UHGV virus genome: UHGV-1334481 | Strand: one strand, 5' to 3' | Source: a virus | DNA length: 57,107 nt | Shown: piece by piece, positions 4,350 to 55,510 of the stretch | Layout: each line of letters starts with the position of its first letter | Position numbering within the stretch: the stretch's first letter is position 1 | The notes under the pieces: model-generated | Database searches by the model: none | What the model saw: the letters and a program-made list of their open reading frames with translations, nothing else | What the model was told of the DNA's origin: nothing | Program-made: the position numbers and the translations under genes

Positions 4350-4350
<1 letters not shown>
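4111..4350 (-). CDS. 67: prohead core protein gp67 (acidic C-terminal tail)
   Basis: 79-aa ORF with poly-D/E tail; position between 20 and 68 as in T4. Confidence 0.8.
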
Positions 4351-5974
<1,624 letters not shown>

Positions 5975-29201: not shown

Positions 29202-29654
29202 ATGGCATATTCTGGAAAATGGGTTCCTAAAAATATATCAAAATATAGAGGTGACCCTAAAAAAATTACGTATAGATCAAATTGGGAAAAATTCTTTTTT
29301 GAATGGTTAGATAAAAATCCAGAAATTATTGCATGGGGTAGTGAAACAGCAGTAATTCCTTATTTTTGTAATGCAGAAGGGAAAAAACGTAGATACTTCA
29401 TGGATATTTGGATGAAAGATTCTTCTGGACAAGAATTTTTTATTGAAATAAAACCTAAAAAAGAAACACAACCACCAGTTAAACCGGCACATCTAACAAC
29501 TGCAGCGAAGAAAAGATTTATGAATGAAATTTATACATATTCCGTTAATACTGACAAATGGAAAGCAGCGCAATCTTTAGCTGAAAAGCGTGGAATAAAA
29601 TTTAGAATTTTAACAGAAGATGGATTACGAGCTCTTGGCTTTAAGGGGGCATAA
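29202..29654 (+). CDS. 4: head completion protein gp4
   Basis: 150-aa ORF with AGGAG RBS; length and synteny match T4 gp4. Confidence 0.85.

Positions 29655-32119: not shown

Positions 32120-32120
<1 letters not shown>
31890..32120 (+). CDS. 57A: tail fiber assembly chaperone gp57A
   Basis: 76-aa ORF MSEQTIEQKLSAEIVTLKSRILDTQDQ...; matches T4 gp57A. Confidence 0.85.
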
Positions 32121-32576
<456 letters not shown>

Positions 32577-32985: not shown

Positions 32986-33282
32986 ATGAAAACTTTCAAA
33001 GAGTTTATCGCTGAATCTTCTGATGTAAAAGTTGAGTTTATTTACACCGGCAAGAAAGATAAAATGGGTGAAATGCCTCATGGAGTTCTTCGTGATGCAT
33101 TAGATAATTTCGGTCAACTCGCCGCAGAAGATTACGGTGATAAAATTGTTGTTACTGGTCCTGCTGCAGTTATTGAAAAATGGGCAGCAGAAAATAAATC
33201 AATTTTTCGTAAAAAAATAAGTTTACTTTTAGATGGGGTAGTGATACTATTACCCTATCAACTACTGAGGAGAATAAAATGA
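32986..33282 (+). CDS. internal-protein-like protein with CTS; 3' end reads through the downstream promoter
   Basis: MKTFKEFIAESS... from ATG 32986; frame passes an A7 run (33211-33217) and ends at TGA overlapping the next ATG; with A6 it would stop at ...SIFRKK. Confidence 0.5.
   Translation: MKTFKEFIAESSDVKVEFIYTGKKDKMGEMPHGVLRDALDNFGQLAAEDYGDKIVVTGPAAVIEKWAAENKSIFRKKISLLLDGVVILLPYQLLRRIK
33221..33250 (+). promoter_or_regulatory. T4-type early promoter
   Basis: -35 gtttac and -10 gatactat, followed by GAGGAG RBS and ATG 33279. Confidence 0.55.
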
Positions 33283-34760: not shown

Positions 34761-34833
34761 TGGGAATTAGCCAAGTTGGTAAGGCACTGGATTTTGATTC
34801 CAGGATGCAAAGGTTCGAGTCCTTTATTCCCAG
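34761..34833 (+). tRNA. tRNA-Gln (anticodon UUG)
   Basis: Hand-folded cloverleaf: acceptor tgggaat/attccca, anticodon loop ttTTGat, T-arm aaagg-ttcgagt-ccttt; no encoded CCA. Confidence 0.8.
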
Positions 34834-34834
34834 C

Positions 34835-34921
34835 GCGAGAATGGTCAAATTGGTAAAGGCACAGCACTTAAAATGCTGCGGAATGATTTCCTTGTGGGTT
34901 CGAGTCCCACTTCTCGCACCA
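34835..34921 (+). tRNA. tRNA-Leu (anticodon UAA), long variable arm
   Basis: Acceptor gcgagaa/ttctcgc, anticodon loop ctTAAaa, T-arm gtggg-ttcgagt-cccac, encoded CCA. Confidence 0.8.
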
Positions 34922-34926
34922 AATTT

Positions 34927-35000
<74 letters not shown>

Positions 35001-35010
35001 ATTTAATTTA

Positions 35011-35084
35011 CTCCGTGTAGCTCAGTTTGGTAGAGCGCCTGATTTGGGATCAGGAGGTCCAAGGTTCAAATCCTTGTATGGAGA
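35011..35084 (+). tRNA. tRNA-Pro (anticodon UGG)
   Basis: Anticodon stem cctga/tcagg with loop ttTGGga, T-arm caagg-ttcaaat-ccttg; acceptor has two G-U pairs. Confidence 0.75.
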
Positions 35085-35086
35085 CT

Positions 35087-35176
35087 GGAGGCGTGGCAGA
35101 GTGGTTTAATGCACCGGTCTTGAAAACCGGCAGTCGCTCCGGCGACTCATAGGTTCAAATCCTATCGCCTCCGCCA
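35087..35176 (+). tRNA. tRNA-Ser (anticodon UGA), long variable arm
   Basis: Acceptor ggaggcg/cgcctcc, anticodon stem ccggt/accgg with loop ctTGAaa, encoded CCA. Confidence 0.8.
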
Positions 35177-35181
35177 GTTTT

Positions 35182-35257
35182 GCTGATTTAGCTCAGTAGG
35201 TAGAGCAACTCACTTGTAATGAGAAGGTCGGCGGTTCGATTCCGTCAATCAGCACCA
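35182..35257 (+). tRNA. tRNA-Thr (anticodon UGU)
   Basis: Acceptor gctgatt/aatcagc, anticodon loop ctTGTaa, T-arm ggcgg-ttcgatt-ccgtc, encoded CCA. Confidence 0.8.
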
Positions 35258-35258
35258 A

Positions 35259-35333
35259 GGCCCTGTAGCTGGAAGGTTCAAGCAAGCGACTCATAATCGC
35301 CAGATGGTGGTTCAATTCCACCCAGGGCCACCA
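35259..35333 (+). tRNA. tRNA-Ile (anticodon CAU, presumed lysidine-modified) or tRNA-Met
   Basis: Acceptor ggccctg/cagggcc, anticodon loop ctCATaa, encoded CCA; T4 tRNA-Ile is known to carry CAU (memory). Confidence 0.75.
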
Positions 35334-35337
35334 ATCT

Positions 35338-35412
35338 GGATGTGTAGCTCAGTGGTAGAGCAGTTGACTGTTAATCAATTGGTCCATGGTTCGAATCCAT
35401 GCATGTCCGCCA
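35338..35412 (+). tRNA. tRNA-Asn (anticodon GUU), tentative
   Basis: Anticodon stem gttga/tcaat with loop ctGTTaa, T-arm catgg-ttcgaat-ccatg, encoded CCA; acceptor has two G-U pairs. Confidence 0.65.
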
Positions 35413-35416
35413 AATA

Positions 35417-35492
35417 CGAGGCATAGCTCAGAAGGAAGAGCAAGGACCTTCTAAGTCCTAGGTCGTAGGTTCGATCCCTACTGCCTCGACCA
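35417..35492 (+). tRNA. tRNA-Arg (anticodon UCU)
   Basis: Acceptor cgaggca/tgcctcg (C1-G72), anticodon stem aggac/gtcct with loop ctTCTaa, encoded CCA. Confidence 0.8.
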
Positions 35493-35859: not shown

Positions 35860-35864
35860 GAAAC

Positions 35865-36170
35865 CGGGTCGCTACCGGTAAGTCGTCGGACTGATGTTCC
35901 CTGAGTAAGGACTGGCATTAACAAATCTTTACGATCTGTTAACGTCCCCTTACATCACAGCAGAAACGGCGCACCGAATTATCGATTCGAGGAAATATCT
36001 TTGCCGTAAGCCGAGTAGCGTTTTTGACGGAACGTTCGGATATGGTCGAGATATGGCCTTTTAAAAATATTGAGTGGCGTCAACTACTTAATAACCGGGT
36101 TCGAATCCCGGCGTTTCGTACAAACACTTGCCTTAGCAGGTGGAACCCCGACAAGGTTGCCGCAAGGCTT
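35865..36170 (+). ncRNA. putative stable small RNA(s), tRNA-like (T4 species 1/2 rnaC/rnaD-like)
   Basis: About 300 nt with no ORF of 60 codons or more, GC-rich with tRNA-like T-arm cgggttcgaatcccg (about 36097-36111); bounded by a terminator at 36172-36198. Confidence 0.4.
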
Positions 36171-36171
36171 A

Positions 36172-36198
36172 GCCCCGACCGAAAGGTTGGGGCTTTTT
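36172..36198 (+). terminator. rho-independent terminator
   Basis: gccccgacc-gaaa-ggttggggc hairpin followed by TTTTT. Confidence 0.7.
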
Positions 36199-36200
36199 AG

Positions 36201-36208
36201 TATAAATA
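36201..36208 (+). promoter_or_regulatory. late promoter (TATAAATA) upstream of the internal-protein-like gene
   Basis: Exact tataaata 41 nt upstream of ATG 36249. Confidence 0.5.
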
Positions 36209-36248
36209 CAGTAGTATATTAAATCCACGAATTAAAACAGGAAATAAG

Positions 36249-36542
36249 ATGAAATCATATGCTCAATTTTTAAATGAAGCGGTGTTAAATGAAGCATCTA
36301 GCACCGAAATTCAAGCTGTCGCAAAAGCAGCCATTGCAGCGGGTAAATATTCCTATAAAGATGCTTCTGACGAATCACGATTCCAGTTTGCTCGCGACAT
36401 GAAAGCAGAAGGATTTACGGGAAATGCAGTTAGTATGGCCTGGAAAAGTTTAGTTGCTACTGGCGCTGCTTTTGCAAAGGCTTCGGGTAAACCTGCTCCT
36501 AAAGCAGATCCTAAAGCTGCACAAGAAAAAAAATATCGTTAA
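36249..36542 (+). CDS. internal-protein-like protein with CTS (ipII-like size); possible frameshift extension to 36723
   Basis: 97 aa, MKSYAQFLNEAVLNEA... CTS-like N-terminus; an A8 run at 36526-36533 precedes the stop and the +1 frame stays open to 36723. Confidence 0.6.
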   Translation: MKSYAQFLNEAVLNEASSTEIQAVAKAAIAAGKYSYKDASDESRFQFARDMKAEGFTGNAVSMAWKSLVATGAAFAKASGKPAPKADPKAAQEKKYR

Positions 36543-36732
36543 AGGAATTATCGCTAAATATGAAGCTATCCTTAAAGAGCTTTTAGTAATCAAAACCGAA
36601 GGCCAAAAGTTAGCCCGTGCTTATAGTTTCAAAGATAATCCACATGTTCACTCTCTTGAGTATGTTGAAGACATTCAAAAAATTATTAAAGACCGCATTT
36701 GGTCTGCTAAACAAATCAAATAACATTCTTAA

Positions 36733-36758
36733 CCCCGACCAAAAGGTTGGGGCTTTTT
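36733..36758 (+). terminator. rho-independent terminator (near-identical copy of the 36172 terminator)
   Basis: ccccgacc-aaaa-ggttgggg hairpin followed by cTTTTT. Confidence 0.7.
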
Positions 36759-36848
36759 AGTTTGAATCACTCGGATAACGCTGTTACGGATAATAACAAA
36801 GTAATAAATAATTAATAACCAACCGATAGATTATTTCAAGGATTTTAA

Positions 36849-37412
36849 ATGAAAACCTATGCCGAATTTTTAACCGAAGCAGCAAAATTACCATCTGAAG
36901 CAGATCTTACTAAAGTATTCTTCCACTTGGACCCAAAAGACCGCGGCGATTTTCTTAAGTGGAAAGCTAAAGCTATTGAAATGTACAACATCGATAATAG
37001 TTCTTTTACAATGAGTCAAGAAAATAAATTCAATAAAGCATTTTTCAAAATTTCTAAGAAATTGGCATCTGGCGCTCAGGTTCCTAAATCTGTATTAGCT
37101 ACTCCTGAACGCGCACCTGTTAAAATTTCTAAGAATATGTTCGACACTAAAAAATACGTTAATGCTTTGAATAAAGCTCTTGATGCATTGGATGATGCAA
37201 AGAAGGCAGCCCGCGATCTTCAAGACGTGTACACCGATTTTGACCGCAAAACTAAAGGTTCTATTTCAAATAGCGAACGCAATAGTGTAAGTGTTTATTC
37301 TGATAGCCTTGATGTTCTTGGCGATGCGTATACTGAAATTAAAAATCGTATTAACACTGCATCTAAGCTAAAAGCTGCTGCAGAAGCTATAATAACTAAA
37401 CTAGATAAATAA
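36849..37412 (+). CDS. internal-protein-like protein with CTS (ipIII-like size)
   Basis: 187 aa, N-terminus MKTYAEFLTEAAKL; T4 IPIII is 194 aa (memory). Confidence 0.6.
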   Translation: MKTYAEFLTEAAKLPSEADLTKVFFHLDPKDRGDFLKWKAKAIEMYNIDNSSFTMSQENKFNKAFFKISKKLASGAQVPKSVLATPERAPVKISKNMFDTKKYVNALNKALDALDDAKKAARDLQDVYTDFDRKTKGSISNSERNSVSVYSDSLDVLGDAYTEIKNRINTASKLKAAAEAIITKLDK

Positions 37413-37420
37413 TTTTAAAT

Positions 37421-37446
37421 CCCTATCTAAATGATAGGGCTTTTTG
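37421..37446 (+). terminator. rho-independent terminator
   Basis: ccctatc-taaat-gataggg hairpin followed by cTTTTT. Confidence 0.65.
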
Positions 37447-37568
37447 GTATCTAGGCCTTTCTGGGCCTCTCTAGGCATCATTTAGTTTATACCCTTTATA
37501 ATATATTATCCTACCTTTTAATTGCCCCTCCCTGCCCCAGAATTCCCTAAAAATTTTTTCACAAAACT

Positions 37569-54619: not shown

Positions 54620-55510
54620 ATGTCAGTAGTAATTAATAATGTCAATGCAGTAATTAAATCTTTAGTTAATAAAAAAATGATGAATGAATGGACTGTATTT
54701 CGCAGTGCAGAGCCAGATAAATTTTTTCATAGATTTAACTCAACTTTGGATTTGAATGTTATCGACAGAGATGTTCATGCAGAAATTTTAGATAAGTTTA
54801 AAGTTGATATTGGATTTGGATTAGAAAAACATTTGCAGCGAATAAACGGATCTGGAATGAGTTTATCTAATCGCATTATGAAAGCCCTTAATAAAATTGG
54901 AGCATTGTCTCGTATTAACGCGAATGAAATCCTTCGTAATTATAATAAAGGATATGACCTTTATGGTCGACTAATGCCAAAATTATCATTCGATCAAATG
55001 ATTGCGGATTTGTGGGAAAATCAAAGACGATTATTAGCATTAGGCGCTCGATTAGCTAAAGGTCTAGATAAACAAATGATTTTTAAGACCAATAATACAG
55101 AAGACCTTAAATGCTTTAAATTTAGTATTCGTGGCGATGATTATTATATCAGAGCTCGCTCTACAGATTATGTCAATATGGGGCATCATCTCTGTTTAGC
55201 TTTTGAAGTTTTAAAAGAAGCTGGAACATTAGAATATTCATCTGGTGCAAAATGCCCTATTGGTTCAAGTTGTATTTTAATTTATCGCCCGGATGAATCC
55301 AGTTCAACTACATTGCCTACGAAACCTGTACCAGTTCGTAGTAACGAAAAACATTCTGAACAAATTGATTATTTTAATAAGCAAATTGAAGAGCTGAATA
55401 TTTCTATTCAACAATATGATGATGAAATTTTCAGACTATCTGGACTGAGTAGTAAAGCTAAATCTGAGCGTGAAAAGTTAATTAAAATTGTCGATTTACT
55501 TAAATCTTAA
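54620..55510 (+). CDS. hypothetical protein
   Basis: Start at ATG 54620 (GAGGAAAA RBS); 296 aa. Confidence 0.55.
   Translation: MSVVINNVNAVIKSLVNKKMMNEWTVFRSAEPDKFFHRFNSTLDLNVIDRDVHAEILDKFKVDIGFGLEKHLQRINGSGMSLSNRIMKALNKIGALSRINANEILRNYNKGYDLYGRLMPKLSFDQMIADLWENQRRLLALGARLAKGLDKQMIFKTNNTEDLKCFKFSIRGDDYYIRARSTDYVNMGHHLCLAFEVLKEAGTLEYSSGAKCPIGSSCILIYRPDESSSTTLPTKPVPVRSNEKHSEQIDYFNKQIEELNISIQQYDDEIFRLSGLSSKAKSEREKLIKIVDLLKS

What the first reader, a model, noticed from the sequence alone, without database searches (positions are those of the whole stretch)
36249..36723. A8 run at the end of an internal-protein-like gene joins a 60-codon start-less open frame
The CTS-bearing ORF 36249-36542 stops just after an A8 run (36526-36533). 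The +1 frame is open from 36454 to 36723 (...KKKNIVKGIIAKYEAILKELL...IWSAKQIK) but contains no ATG after the A-run, so it is unlikely to be an independent gene. Long A-runs are classic sites of indel error and also of transcriptional slippage or ribosomal frameshifting, so two C-terminal isoforms from one gene are plausible. The fused product would be about 157 aa.
Basis: inference. Interest (0 to 1): 0.55.

Follow-up and report, generated by a model that had tools for sequence, protein, structure and literature searches.

The report
Frameshifted internal-protein gene at A-run hotspot
The two reading frames are one 157-codon T4-type phage gene split by a single extra A in a run of A's, a spot where related phages repeatedly gain or lose an A; it is an ordinary DNA-level frameshift, not a programmed way of making two proteins.

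Summary
ORF 36249-36542 (97 aa) ends just after the only A8 run in the window. The +1 frame stays open to 36723 and has no start codon after the run.

The window is a Tequatrovirus (T4-like) genome. Most relatives carry A7 at this site and one uninterrupted 157-aa gene, and divergent orthologues (70-83% identity) also read straight through. The window therefore has a +1 A frameshift allele of a single gene: a late-transcribed protein of unknown function (phrog_2280) with a capsid-targeting-like N-terminus.

The run is a real indel hotspot. A6, A8 and A9 alleles recur on at least 10 haplotypes, several identical to A7 alleles outside the run. They made up 7 of 60 evenly sampled genomes, against 0 of 60 at an A7 run in essential gene 4.

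Programmed recoding is unlikely:
- Orthologues are in frame.
- Synonymous changes break the run in some alleles.
- No RNA structure follows the run.
- Published reporter work saw no deletion-type slippage by E. coli RNA polymerase on the poly(A) runs tested.

Whether A8 is real in this phage cannot be decided without reads. The window also carries private one-base indels, including a lethal one in the portal gene.

Interest is low to moderate.

The parts
36171..36194 (+). Intrinsic-terminator-like stem-loop plus T-run that ends the upstream tRNA/small-RNA unit. It is the first copy of a 40-nt direct repeat (36168-36207).
   Evidence: Terminator scan; repeat family D1; annotated as a terminator in fPS-90, fPS-65 and G28.
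36201..36208 (+). TATAAATA, the T4 late-promoter consensus, 41 nt upstream of the ATG.
   Evidence: Exact match: 21 matches in the window against 8.6 expected, most of them upstream of late structural genes. Annotated as a 'predicted late promoter' at the same place in fPS-90 and fPS-65.
36239..36244 (+). Shine-Dalgarno-like AGGAAA, 5-10 nt before the ATG.
   Evidence: Read from the sequence; repeated in front of the paralogue (family D2).
36249..36281 (+). Capsid-targeting-sequence-like N-terminus MKSYAQFLNE|A. A second LNE|A motif follows directly.
   Evidence: similar N-termini on the annotated internal head proteins of this window; role of the capsid targeting sequence from PMC3012670.
36249..36542 (+). 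Frame-0 ORF as it stands: 97 aa, made of the targeting motif, a three-helix N-terminal domain, a Lys/Pro/Ala-rich linker and 3 out-of-frame residues (K-Y-R).
   Evidence: domain layout from the AlphaFold model of orthologue P0001.
36526..36533 (+). A8 run. It is A7 in most relatives and A6, A8 or A9 in a minority, and it is the frameshift site. In the in-frame allele it encodes E93-K94-N95.
36532..36723 (+). The +1-frame continuation: 63 sense codons (NIVKGIIAKYEAILKELL...IWSAKQIK) plus the stop codon.
36733..36752 (+). Intrinsic-terminator-like stem-loop plus T-run that ends the transcription unit. It is the second copy of the 40-nt repeat (36728-36767, 90% identical to the first).
   Evidence: RB51 annotates its orthologue as 'flanked by 34 bp imperfect direct repeat'.
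36849..37412 (+). Tandem paralogue (187 aa, N-terminus MKTYAEFLTEA) of the same family, followed by a third, weaker copy of the repeat with its own terminator-like stem-loop (37421-37439).
   Evidence: phrog_2280 at E = 9.7e-54.

Best explanation
Positions 36249-36723 are one late-transcribed Tequatrovirus gene. It encodes a 157-aa protein of unknown function (PHROG family phrog_2280; orthologue of RB32ORF132c/RB51ORF140) with an N-terminus like the capsid targeting sequence of T4 internal head proteins. In this window the gene carries a DNA-level +1 frameshift: the A7 run that encodes Glu-Lys-Asn has become A8. Normal decoding then gives a 97-aa protein that keeps the targeting motif, the N-terminal three-helix domain and the linker, and loses the C-terminal helical hairpin. 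The run is a replication-slippage hotspot of the classical Streisinger type in a gene that phage isolates can do without, so A6, A8 and A9 alleles arise repeatedly. The change is not programmed; any full-length protein made from the A8 allele would be trace-level leakage. Shown here: the single-gene architecture, the in-frame state of orthologues, and recurrent independent changes in run length. Inferred: the replication-slippage mechanism, dispensability of the gene, packaging into the head, and stability of the truncated product. Not resolved: whether A8 is really present in this phage's DNA or is a consensus error in this assembly. The confidence given here (0.54) is for the real-allele version; the consensus-error version is listed as the first rival (0.33). 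Together, the reading 'one gene with a non-programmed DNA-level frameshift' has about 0.87.
For: (1) SsoM_113, fPS-90, ESh26, JB75 and UGKSEcP2 all annotate one 474-nt CDS at this place, and the alignment differs from the window only by A7 versus A8.
(2) The frame-corrected protein matches phrog_2280 from end to end (residues 1-157 on profile positions 1-172 of 178, E = 1.7e-60).
(3) Orthologues at 70-83% identity (P0002-P0005) read through ...AAQEKNI(A/V)KGII..., and the C-terminal 60 residues are the best-conserved part of the protein.
(4) Run length varies among deposited genomes: A8 in ph0021, PsgM02F, SF2-1, AUBRB02, PYps55T and G28; A9 in fPS-65 and ECO4; A6 in SfPhi01 and 235Ecol030PP. 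The exact 97-aa product is encoded on at least 11 further contigs from independent samples. All 10 contigs fetched carry A8, and none is identical to the window. A8 and A6 also occur in more divergent allele backgrounds (P0008 and P0009).
(5) The events are independent and recent. L032 (A8) has 0 differences in 467 nt from JB75 (A7). fPS-65 (A9) has 0 differences from an A7 allele. ECO4 (A9) has 0 differences from SfPhi01 (A6). The window differs at 3 positions from ESh26 (A7). The downstream frame has no stop codon in any of 21 frameshifted alleles.
(6) Control for sequencing error: 7 of 60 evenly spaced records are not A7 at this site, against 0 of 60 at the A7 run in essential gene 4. Fisher p = 0.013.
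(7) One transcription unit: terminator, TATAAATA, Shine-Dalgarno sequence, ATG, gene, terminator. Nothing that could start translation lies after the run.
Against: Nothing contradicts the single-gene, DNA-level frameshift reading. The weak point is whether A8 is real in this phage. The window carries three private one-base indels shared by none of 196-560 relatives:
- a deletion that breaks the essential portal gene 20;
- an insertion in 57B/Acb1;
- A6 to A7 at 33211, which removes a stop codon.
The consensus is therefore demonstrably not free of indel errors.

Dispensability of the gene is inferred only from the existence of frameshifted isolates. Packaging and protease processing of the product were not tested. 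The frequency of about 12% comes from a sample of 60 of 336 records, read from alignment spans. Only 11 of the deposited records had the run length checked in their fetched sequence.
Confidence: 0.54

Rival explanations
1. Consensus error. The phage really has A7 and an intact 157-aa gene, and the extra A was introduced by sequencing or assembly of this particular genome.
For: The window has a private 1-nt deletion in the essential portal gene 20 near position 5658. It splits the 524-aa gene into ORFs of 112 and 412 aa, and none of 501 relatives shares it. It also has a private 1-nt insertion in 57B/Acb1 at 32201 (0 of 560 records). A private A6-to-A7 change at 33211 removes the stop codon of a 77-aa internal-protein gene. 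A viable phage cannot have a broken portal gene, so the consensus contains indel errors.
Against: A8 at this exact site is a common genuine allele, found in 3 of 60 evenly sampled genomes and on many short-read metagenome contigs. Two of the three private indels are not in long homopolymers, so the error process does not look strongly homopolymer-driven. The other three A7/T7 runs in the window show no indel against the nearest relative UGKSEcP2 where they were aligned (2809 and 29259); the gene 4 run at 29259 also matches relatives exactly (100% identity hits). The run at 54671 lay in an aligned block with no indel there.
Confidence: 0.33
2. Adaptive contingency switch. The A-tract is kept because reversible slippage between A7 and A6/A8/A9 gives phage populations a mix of full-length and truncated injected protein, which is useful against variable host defences.
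For: Run-length changes are recurrent, independent and apparently reversible on identical haplotypes. About 12% of sampled genomes are out of frame, and none shows secondary decay of the downstream frame. T4 internal proteins are known anti-defence effectors; IPI* blocks GmrSD (PMC3012670). The truncated product keeps the targeting motif and a complete N-terminal domain, and that domain occurs elsewhere with a different C-terminal domain (P0010, P0011).
Against: The tract is not maintained. RB51 has GAG AAA AAT and the P0005 allele has GAA AAG AAT, both with the same protein sequence; the wider low-identity allele group that RB51 represents was not checked. GAA-AAA-AAT is simply the preferred codon choice in this AT-rich genome (my own knowledge of T4 codon usage). 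A7 is short for a phase-variation tract. No phenotype is known. Mutation pressure on a nearly neutral gene explains the same data.
Confidence: 0.08
3. Programmed recoding. RNA polymerase slippage or +1 ribosomal frameshifting on the A-run makes both a 97-aa and a 157-aa isoform from the A8 gene in a set ratio.
For: The stop codon follows the run by two codons and the +1 frame is fully open. This layout resembles Citrobacter rodentium tssM1, where an A11 run gives about 20-25% frameshifting (PMC4256274). A +1 re-pairing of tRNA-Lys from AAA to AAA within the run is sterically possible (inference).
Against: The out-of-frame layout is not conserved: most orthologues are in frame. The run is broken by synonymous changes in some alleles. 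No RNA structure beyond chance follows the run. No Shine-Dalgarno-like or pause element precedes it (read). In reporter assays, E. coli RNA polymerase showed nothing detectable below A8, and no deletion-type rescue on the poly(A) runs tested; rescue here needs -1 A or +2 A (PMC6260861). Proven cases use 9-11 A or T.
Confidence: 0.04
4. Two independent genes: a 97-aa gene and a separately initiated downstream gene of about 60 aa.
For: One gene caller placed an 83-aa CDS over the downstream frame on one metagenome contig (L031, 3224-3475).
Against: After the run the frame contains no ATG, GTG or TTG. The only nearby AGGA directly abuts an ATT codon, with no spacer. The PHROG profile and all orthologues span both parts as one polypeptide.
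Confidence: 0.01

Closest known systems
T4 internal head proteins IPI, IPII and IPIII, and the variable 'IP palette' of T-even phages (Repoila et al. 1994, as cited in PMC4122927; review PMC3012670)
   Same: An N-terminal MK(S/T)(Y/F)x(E/Q)F(L/I)xE|A motif like the capsid targeting sequence. A late promoter. Small size. A position in a hyperplastic region next to other annotated internal-protein genes. Cassettes bounded by repeated terminator motifs.
   Different: No sequence or fold similarity beyond the N-terminal motif. The only family match is phrog_2280, of unknown function, and the fold searches found nothing outside this protein's own family. Packaging, cleavage by the prohead protease and any anti-defence role are untested.
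Streisinger-type replication-slippage frameshift hotspots at A-runs, as classically mapped in T4 rII and lysozyme genes (my own knowledge)
   Same: Changes of one base or more in a run of A's in a T4-type genome, recurring independently at the same site. Alleles whose run is interrupted were intact in the two cases checked (RB51 and P0005).
   Different: Here the pattern is seen as natural polymorphism across isolates and metagenomes rather than in a laboratory mutant screen. The mutation rate was not measured.
Transcriptional-slippage rescue of interrupted genes, for example Citrobacter rodentium tssM1 (A11; PMC4256274)
   Same: An A-run a few codons before a premature stop, with the rest of the protein open in another frame. 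Both a truncated and a full-length form are conceivable.
   Different: A8 rather than A11. Restoring the frame needs loss of one A rather than gain. Orthologues are in frame. No evidence for a set ratio of products or a requirement for both.
Homopolymeric-tract phase variation (bacterial contingency loci, PMC2831843 and PMC6625227; hypermutable poly-G tracts in Campylobacter phage genes, my own knowledge)
   Same: Reversible frame switching at a homopolymer in an accessory gene. Several run lengths are seen on one haplotype.
   Different: The tract is short and is not conserved against synonymous change. No phenotype or selective benefit has been shown.
Promoter/stem-loop (PeSL) cassette shuffling in T4-like hyperplastic regions (Comeau, Arbiol and Krisch 2014, PMC4122927)
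   Same: The gene and its paralogue are each bracketed by copies of a 40-nt terminator-containing direct repeat. Some relatives carry one cassette and others carry two.
   Different: The promoter joined to the stem-loop here is a late one (TATAAATA), not the early sigma-70-like promoter that defines PeSLs. Recombination at these repeats was not tested.

Membership tests
T4-type internal head proteins (carrying a capsid targeting sequence) | N-terminal targeting motif ending in a (L/I)-x-E|A prohead-protease site | tested here: met
   MKSYAQFLNE|A compared with MKTFKEFIAE|S on the phrog_8111 'internal virion protein' of the same window. The T4 consensus MKTYQEFIAEA is from my own knowledge.
T4-type internal head proteins (carrying a capsid targeting sequence) | Late transcription | tested here: met
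   An exact TATAAATA at 36201-36208, 41 nt upstream of the ATG. This is a sequence match only; expression was not measured.
T4-type internal head proteins (carrying a capsid targeting sequence) | Presence in the head, cleavage by gp21 and injection with the DNA | not testable with these tools
   Needs virion proteomics.
T4-type internal head proteins (carrying a capsid targeting sequence) | Homology to IPI, IPII or IPIII beyond the targeting motif | tested here: not met
   Only phrog_2280 (unknown function) matches. There is no Pfam hit and no structural match outside the protein's own family.
Programmed frameshifting or transcriptional slippage site | The out-of-frame arrangement is conserved among orthologues | tested here: not met
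   Most relatives (53 of 60 sampled) and all divergent full-length orthologues are in frame.
Programmed frameshifting or transcriptional slippage site | The slippery run is protected from synonymous change | tested here: not met
   RB51 has GAG AAA AAT (run of 5 A) and the P0005 allele has GAA AAG AAT (run of 4 A), both with an identical E-K-N.
Programmed frameshifting or transcriptional slippage site | A stimulatory element (downstream RNA structure, or an upstream Shine-Dalgarno-like or pause signal) | tested here: not met
   Folding of 36515-36625 gives -13.3 kcal/mol, z = +0.70 against shuffles. No such motif is visible in the sequence.
Programmed frameshifting or transcriptional slippage site | The run is long enough for efficient slippage by the host RNA polymerase in the needed direction | tested here: not met
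   The run is A8. Published reporters gave nothing detectable below A8 and no deletion-type rescue on poly(A) (PMC6260861). Proven cases use A9-A11 (PMC4256274). This rests on a literature comparison, not a measurement on this site.
Programmed frameshifting or transcriptional slippage site | Two protein products are observed | not testable with these tools
   Needs proteomics or Western blotting.
Homopolymer contingency locus (phase variation) | Recurrent, independent length changes at the tract | tested here: met
   A6, A7, A8 and A9 occur on at least 10 haplotypes; 7 of 60 sampled genomes are not A7, against 0 of 60 at a control A7 run.
Homopolymer contingency locus (phase variation) | Reversibility: different lengths on otherwise identical alleles | tested here: met
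   Pairs with 0 differences in 467 nt outside the run: A7/A8, A7/A9 and A6/A9. The direction of change is not known.
Homopolymer contingency locus (phase variation) | The tract is maintained by selection | tested here: not met
   The run is interrupted in RB51 and in the P0005 allele.
Homopolymer contingency locus (phase variation) | Switching has a phenotypic, adaptive consequence | not testable with these tools
   Needs isogenic phages tested on a host panel.

The most novel reading that the evidence does not exclude
The A-tract at the boundary between the N-terminal domain with its linker and the C-terminal hairpin works as a phage contingency switch. Replication slippage reversibly toggles a packaged, injected protein between a full-length and a truncated form, and low-level transcript or ribosome slippage blurs the two states. 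T4-like phage populations would then be pre-adapted to hosts whose defences either need the full protein to be countered or are triggered by it.
Probability: 0.08. Interest if true: 0.6.

Novelty: new member of a known kind. Interest (0 to 1): 0.27.

Why it matters
For annotation, 36249-36723 should be recorded as one frameshifted gene (a pseudogene or truncated allele), not as a 97-aa gene followed by empty space, and not as a recoding site.

For genome quality, the window carries private one-base indels, one of them lethal, so its consensus should be checked against the reads.

For biology, the finding is modest but real. An accessory gene with an N-terminus like that of internal head proteins is out of frame in roughly one in eight sampled Tequatrovirus genomes, through repeated slippage at one A7 run. 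This marks the gene as dispensable in culture and gives a natural series of truncation alleles that could be used to find out what the protein does.

Tried and rejected
1. Run-length-specific megablast queries of 41-42 nt centred on A8 or A9 found nothing, because the low-complexity filter masks the run. I read run lengths from alignment spans and from fetched loci instead.

2. An exact A8 pattern scan of IMG/VR found 0 contigs. A pattern tolerant of run length found only 3 contigs, all A7, which was too few to estimate a frequency.

3. Pfam gave no hit for the 157-aa protein.

4. Foldseek against the PDB gave nothing below E = 0.46. Against BFVD it returned only members of the protein's own family, including a 97-aa truncated entry. 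There is no functional lead.

5. I looked for a frameshift-stimulating RNA structure after the run and found none.

6. Literature searches found no paper describing this gene or this hotspot.

7. I considered an independent start for the downstream frame. An ATT at 36547 directly abuts AAGGA, and the ATG at 36560 is in the wrong frame and opens 8 codons. I rejected this.

8. I considered a -1 shift on the A AAA AAT heptamer of A7 alleles as a way to make the 97-aa form. There is no stimulator and no evidence, so it remains speculation.

Full report
**What is in the sequence**

The window is a T4-like (Tequatrovirus) genome segment. The 1.6 kb around the finding is 97-99% identical to many Escherichia, Shigella and Yersinia Tequatrovirus genomes, and 24 kb of the window is 98.8% identical to phage UGKSEcP2.

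The local order of features is:
- nine tRNA genes at 34761-35492;
- a 116-aa ORF;
- about 390 nt without a convincing ORF;
- a terminator-like hairpin at 36171-36194;
- an exact T4 late-promoter consensus TATAAATA at 36201-36208;
- a Shine-Dalgarno-like AGGAAA and the ATG at 36249.

ORF 36249-36542 encodes 97 aa. The A8 run is at 36526-36533 and is the only A/T run of 8 or more in the 57 kb. The +1 frame is open to 36723. After the run that frame has no ATG, GTG or TTG codon (read). A second terminator-like hairpin at 36733-36752 closes the unit. Nothing between the frame-0 stop and that terminator looks like a translation start.

**One gene, not two**

Five close relatives (SsoM_113, fPS-90, ESh26, JB75, UGKSEcP2) annotate a single 474-nt CDS at this place. 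Around the run the alignment is identical except that they have A7 where the window has A8.

The frame-corrected protein matches PHROG family phrog_2280 (unknown function) from end to end at E = 1.7e-60. The next gene downstream (36849-37412, 187 aa) belongs to the same family, so the two are tandem paralogues.

A search of about 5.8 billion proteins found orthologues at 70-83% identity that are 154-157 aa long. They read straight through ...AAQEKNI(A/V)KGII.... The 60 C-terminal residues are the most conserved part of the protein.

An AlphaFold model of orthologue P0001 (mean pLDDT 74) shows four parts:
- a short N-terminal helix, the targeting motif;
- a three-helix domain (residues 18-71);
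- a disordered Lys/Pro/Ala-rich linker (76-88);
- a C-terminal helical hairpin (88-155).

The run encodes E93-K94-N95, at the start of the hairpin. The A8 allele therefore removes exactly the C-terminal domain. More distant relatives in Yersinia phage fHe-Yen9-01 and Klebsiella phage KP01 share the N-terminal domain but carry a different C-terminal domain, so the break falls at a natural module boundary.

**What kind of gene it is**

The N-terminus MKSYAQFLNE|A resembles those of the annotated internal head proteins in this window, MKTFKEFIAES and MKTFKEFAAKT. It also resembles the capsid targeting sequence that directs T4 internal proteins into the prohead (PMC3012670).

With the late promoter, this supports the working description 'internal-protein-like'. 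Beyond the motif there is no Pfam hit and no structural match outside the protein's own family. Packaging and function remain inferred.

The gene and its paralogue are each bracketed by copies of a 40-nt direct repeat that contains the terminator. RB51's annotators noted the same thing: 'flanked by 34 bp imperfect direct repeat'. This recalls the cassette shuffling described for T4-like hyperplastic regions and for the internal-protein locus (PMC4122927).

**The run is a genuine indel hotspot**

Run lengths in deposited genomes and other assemblies:

| Run | Frame-0 product | Where seen |
|---|---|---|
| A7 | 157 aa | most relatives |
| A8 | 97 aa | ph0021, PsgM02F, SF2-1, AUBRB02, PYps55T, G28 |
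| A9 | 112 aa | fPS-65, ECO4 |
| A6 | 111 aa | SfPhi01, 235Ecol030PP |

In an evenly spaced sample of 60 of the 336 matching records, 7 are not A7. The exact 97-aa product is also encoded on at least 11 further contigs from independent metagenomes and genomes. All 10 contigs fetched carry A8, and none is identical to the window. A8 and A6 occur in more divergent allele backgrounds too (P0008; P0009 in two samples).

The events are independent and recent. Outside the run, over 467 nt:
- L032 (A8) has 0 differences from JB75 (A7);
- fPS-65 (A9) has 0 differences from an A7 allele;
- ECO4 (A9) has 0 differences from SfPhi01 (A6);
- the window has 3 differences from ESh26 (A7).

None of 21 frameshifted alleles has a stop codon in the downstream frame. 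I count at least ten separate haplotypes carrying a shifted run.

Sequencing noise is an unlikely explanation for most of this. At an A7 run in essential gene 4 (29259-29265), 60 of 60 evenly spaced records keep the length, including fPS-65. The contrast of 7/60 with 0/60 gives Fisher p = 0.013.

The simplest reading is replication slippage at the run in a gene that isolates can lose without dying.

**Why programmed recoding is unlikely**
- The out-of-frame layout is the minority state, not the conserved one.
- The run is not protected. RB51 has GAG AAA AAT and the P0005 allele has GAA AAG AAT, both encoding the same E-K-N.
- The 111 nt around and after the run fold no better than shuffled sequence (z = +0.70).
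- Restoring the frame from A8 needs loss of one A or gain of two. T4 late genes are transcribed by the host RNA polymerase core (my own knowledge). In reporter assays E. coli RNA polymerase gave nothing detectable below A8 and no deletion-type rescue on the poly(A) runs tested (PMC6260861).
- The best-known look-alike, Citrobacter rodentium tssM1, uses A11 and adds bases (PMC4256274).

Trace leakage to full-length protein cannot be excluded, but nothing suggests a set ratio of isoforms.

**Is A8 real in this phage?**

This cannot be decided without reads. Comparison with the nearest relative shows other one-base indels in the window. Three of them are private:
- A deletion near 5658 splits the essential portal gene 20 into ORFs of 112 and 412 aa. 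None of 501 relatives has it.
- An insertion at 32201 breaks 57B, which one record annotates as the anti-CBASS protein Acb1. None of 560 relatives has it.
- A6 to A7 at 33211 removes the stop codon of a 77-aa internal-protein gene. No full-coverage relative has it.

A broken portal gene is not compatible with a viable phage, so the consensus contains at least one error.

Against that, A8 at this particular site is a common true allele, and two of the three private indels are not in long homopolymers. I put the odds at roughly 60:35 in favour of a real allele.

**Verdict**

The isoform and recoding idea is not supported.

The site is a new example of a known kind: a homopolymer frameshift hotspot in a dispensable accessory gene. 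The most novel reading still open is that the tract serves as a contingency switch for an injected protein. I rate that at about 8%, because the tract is not maintained across alleles.

Noticed in passing
window 4350-5935 (- strand), indel near 5658: The portal gene 20 (524 aa in relatives) is split into ORFs of 112 and 412 aa by a 1-nt deletion: TGCATT-TCTAC here against TGCATTATCCAC in UGKSEcP2. None of 501 matching phage records shares the deletion. It would be lethal, so it is almost certainly a consensus error.
   Followed up: yes
window 32120-32576, insertion at 32201: Gene 57B (annotated in various records as 'RNA ligase', and as the anti-CBASS protein Acb1 in one) carries a private 1-nt insertion. 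It breaks the frame and creates a perfect 16-nt palindrome, CTGGAAGTTCTTCCAG. None of 560 records shares it.
   Followed up: partly
window 32986-33282, run at 33211-33217: A second A-run difference affects an internal-protein gene. Relatives have CGT AAA AAA TAA (A6) and a 77-aa protein (phrog_8111). The window has A7, which removes the stop codon and adds 21 residues. No full-coverage record among 196 shares it.
   Followed up: yes
window 36168-36207, 36728-36767, 37415-37454: Three copies of a 40-nt direct repeat containing a terminator hairpin bracket the two tandem phrog_2280 paralogues. Some relatives (AUBRB02, PYps55T, G28, ECO4, RB51) have only the first cassette, followed directly by e.8. 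This suggests gain or loss of cassettes by recombination at the repeats.
   Followed up: partly
L016 (ECO4) and L017 (SfPhi01): These two deposited genomes are identical over 467 nt of the gene outside the run but carry A9 and A6. The two lengths differ by 3 nt, so both alleles read the same wrong frame.
   Followed up: no
L005 (ph0021) and L006 (PsgM02F): 'Pseudomonas phage PsgM02F', recorded with host Pseudomonas coronafaciens, is identical to Escherichia phage ph0021 over the 1,291 nt compared and is plainly a Tequatrovirus. The host label looks doubtful.
   Followed up: no
window 35860-36248: About 390 nt between the 116-aa ORF and the late promoter has no convincing ORF and no Rfam match. 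Some annotators place small hypothetical CDSs here. By position it may correspond to the small stable RNAs that follow the T4 tRNA cluster.
   Followed up: no
window 35769 compared with L011 (UGKSEcP2): A CC-versus-CCC difference makes the UGKSEcP2 CDS 93 aa where the window, SsoM_113 and ESh26 have 116 aa (phrog_3355). Here the relative, not the window, looks like the odd one out.
   Followed up: no
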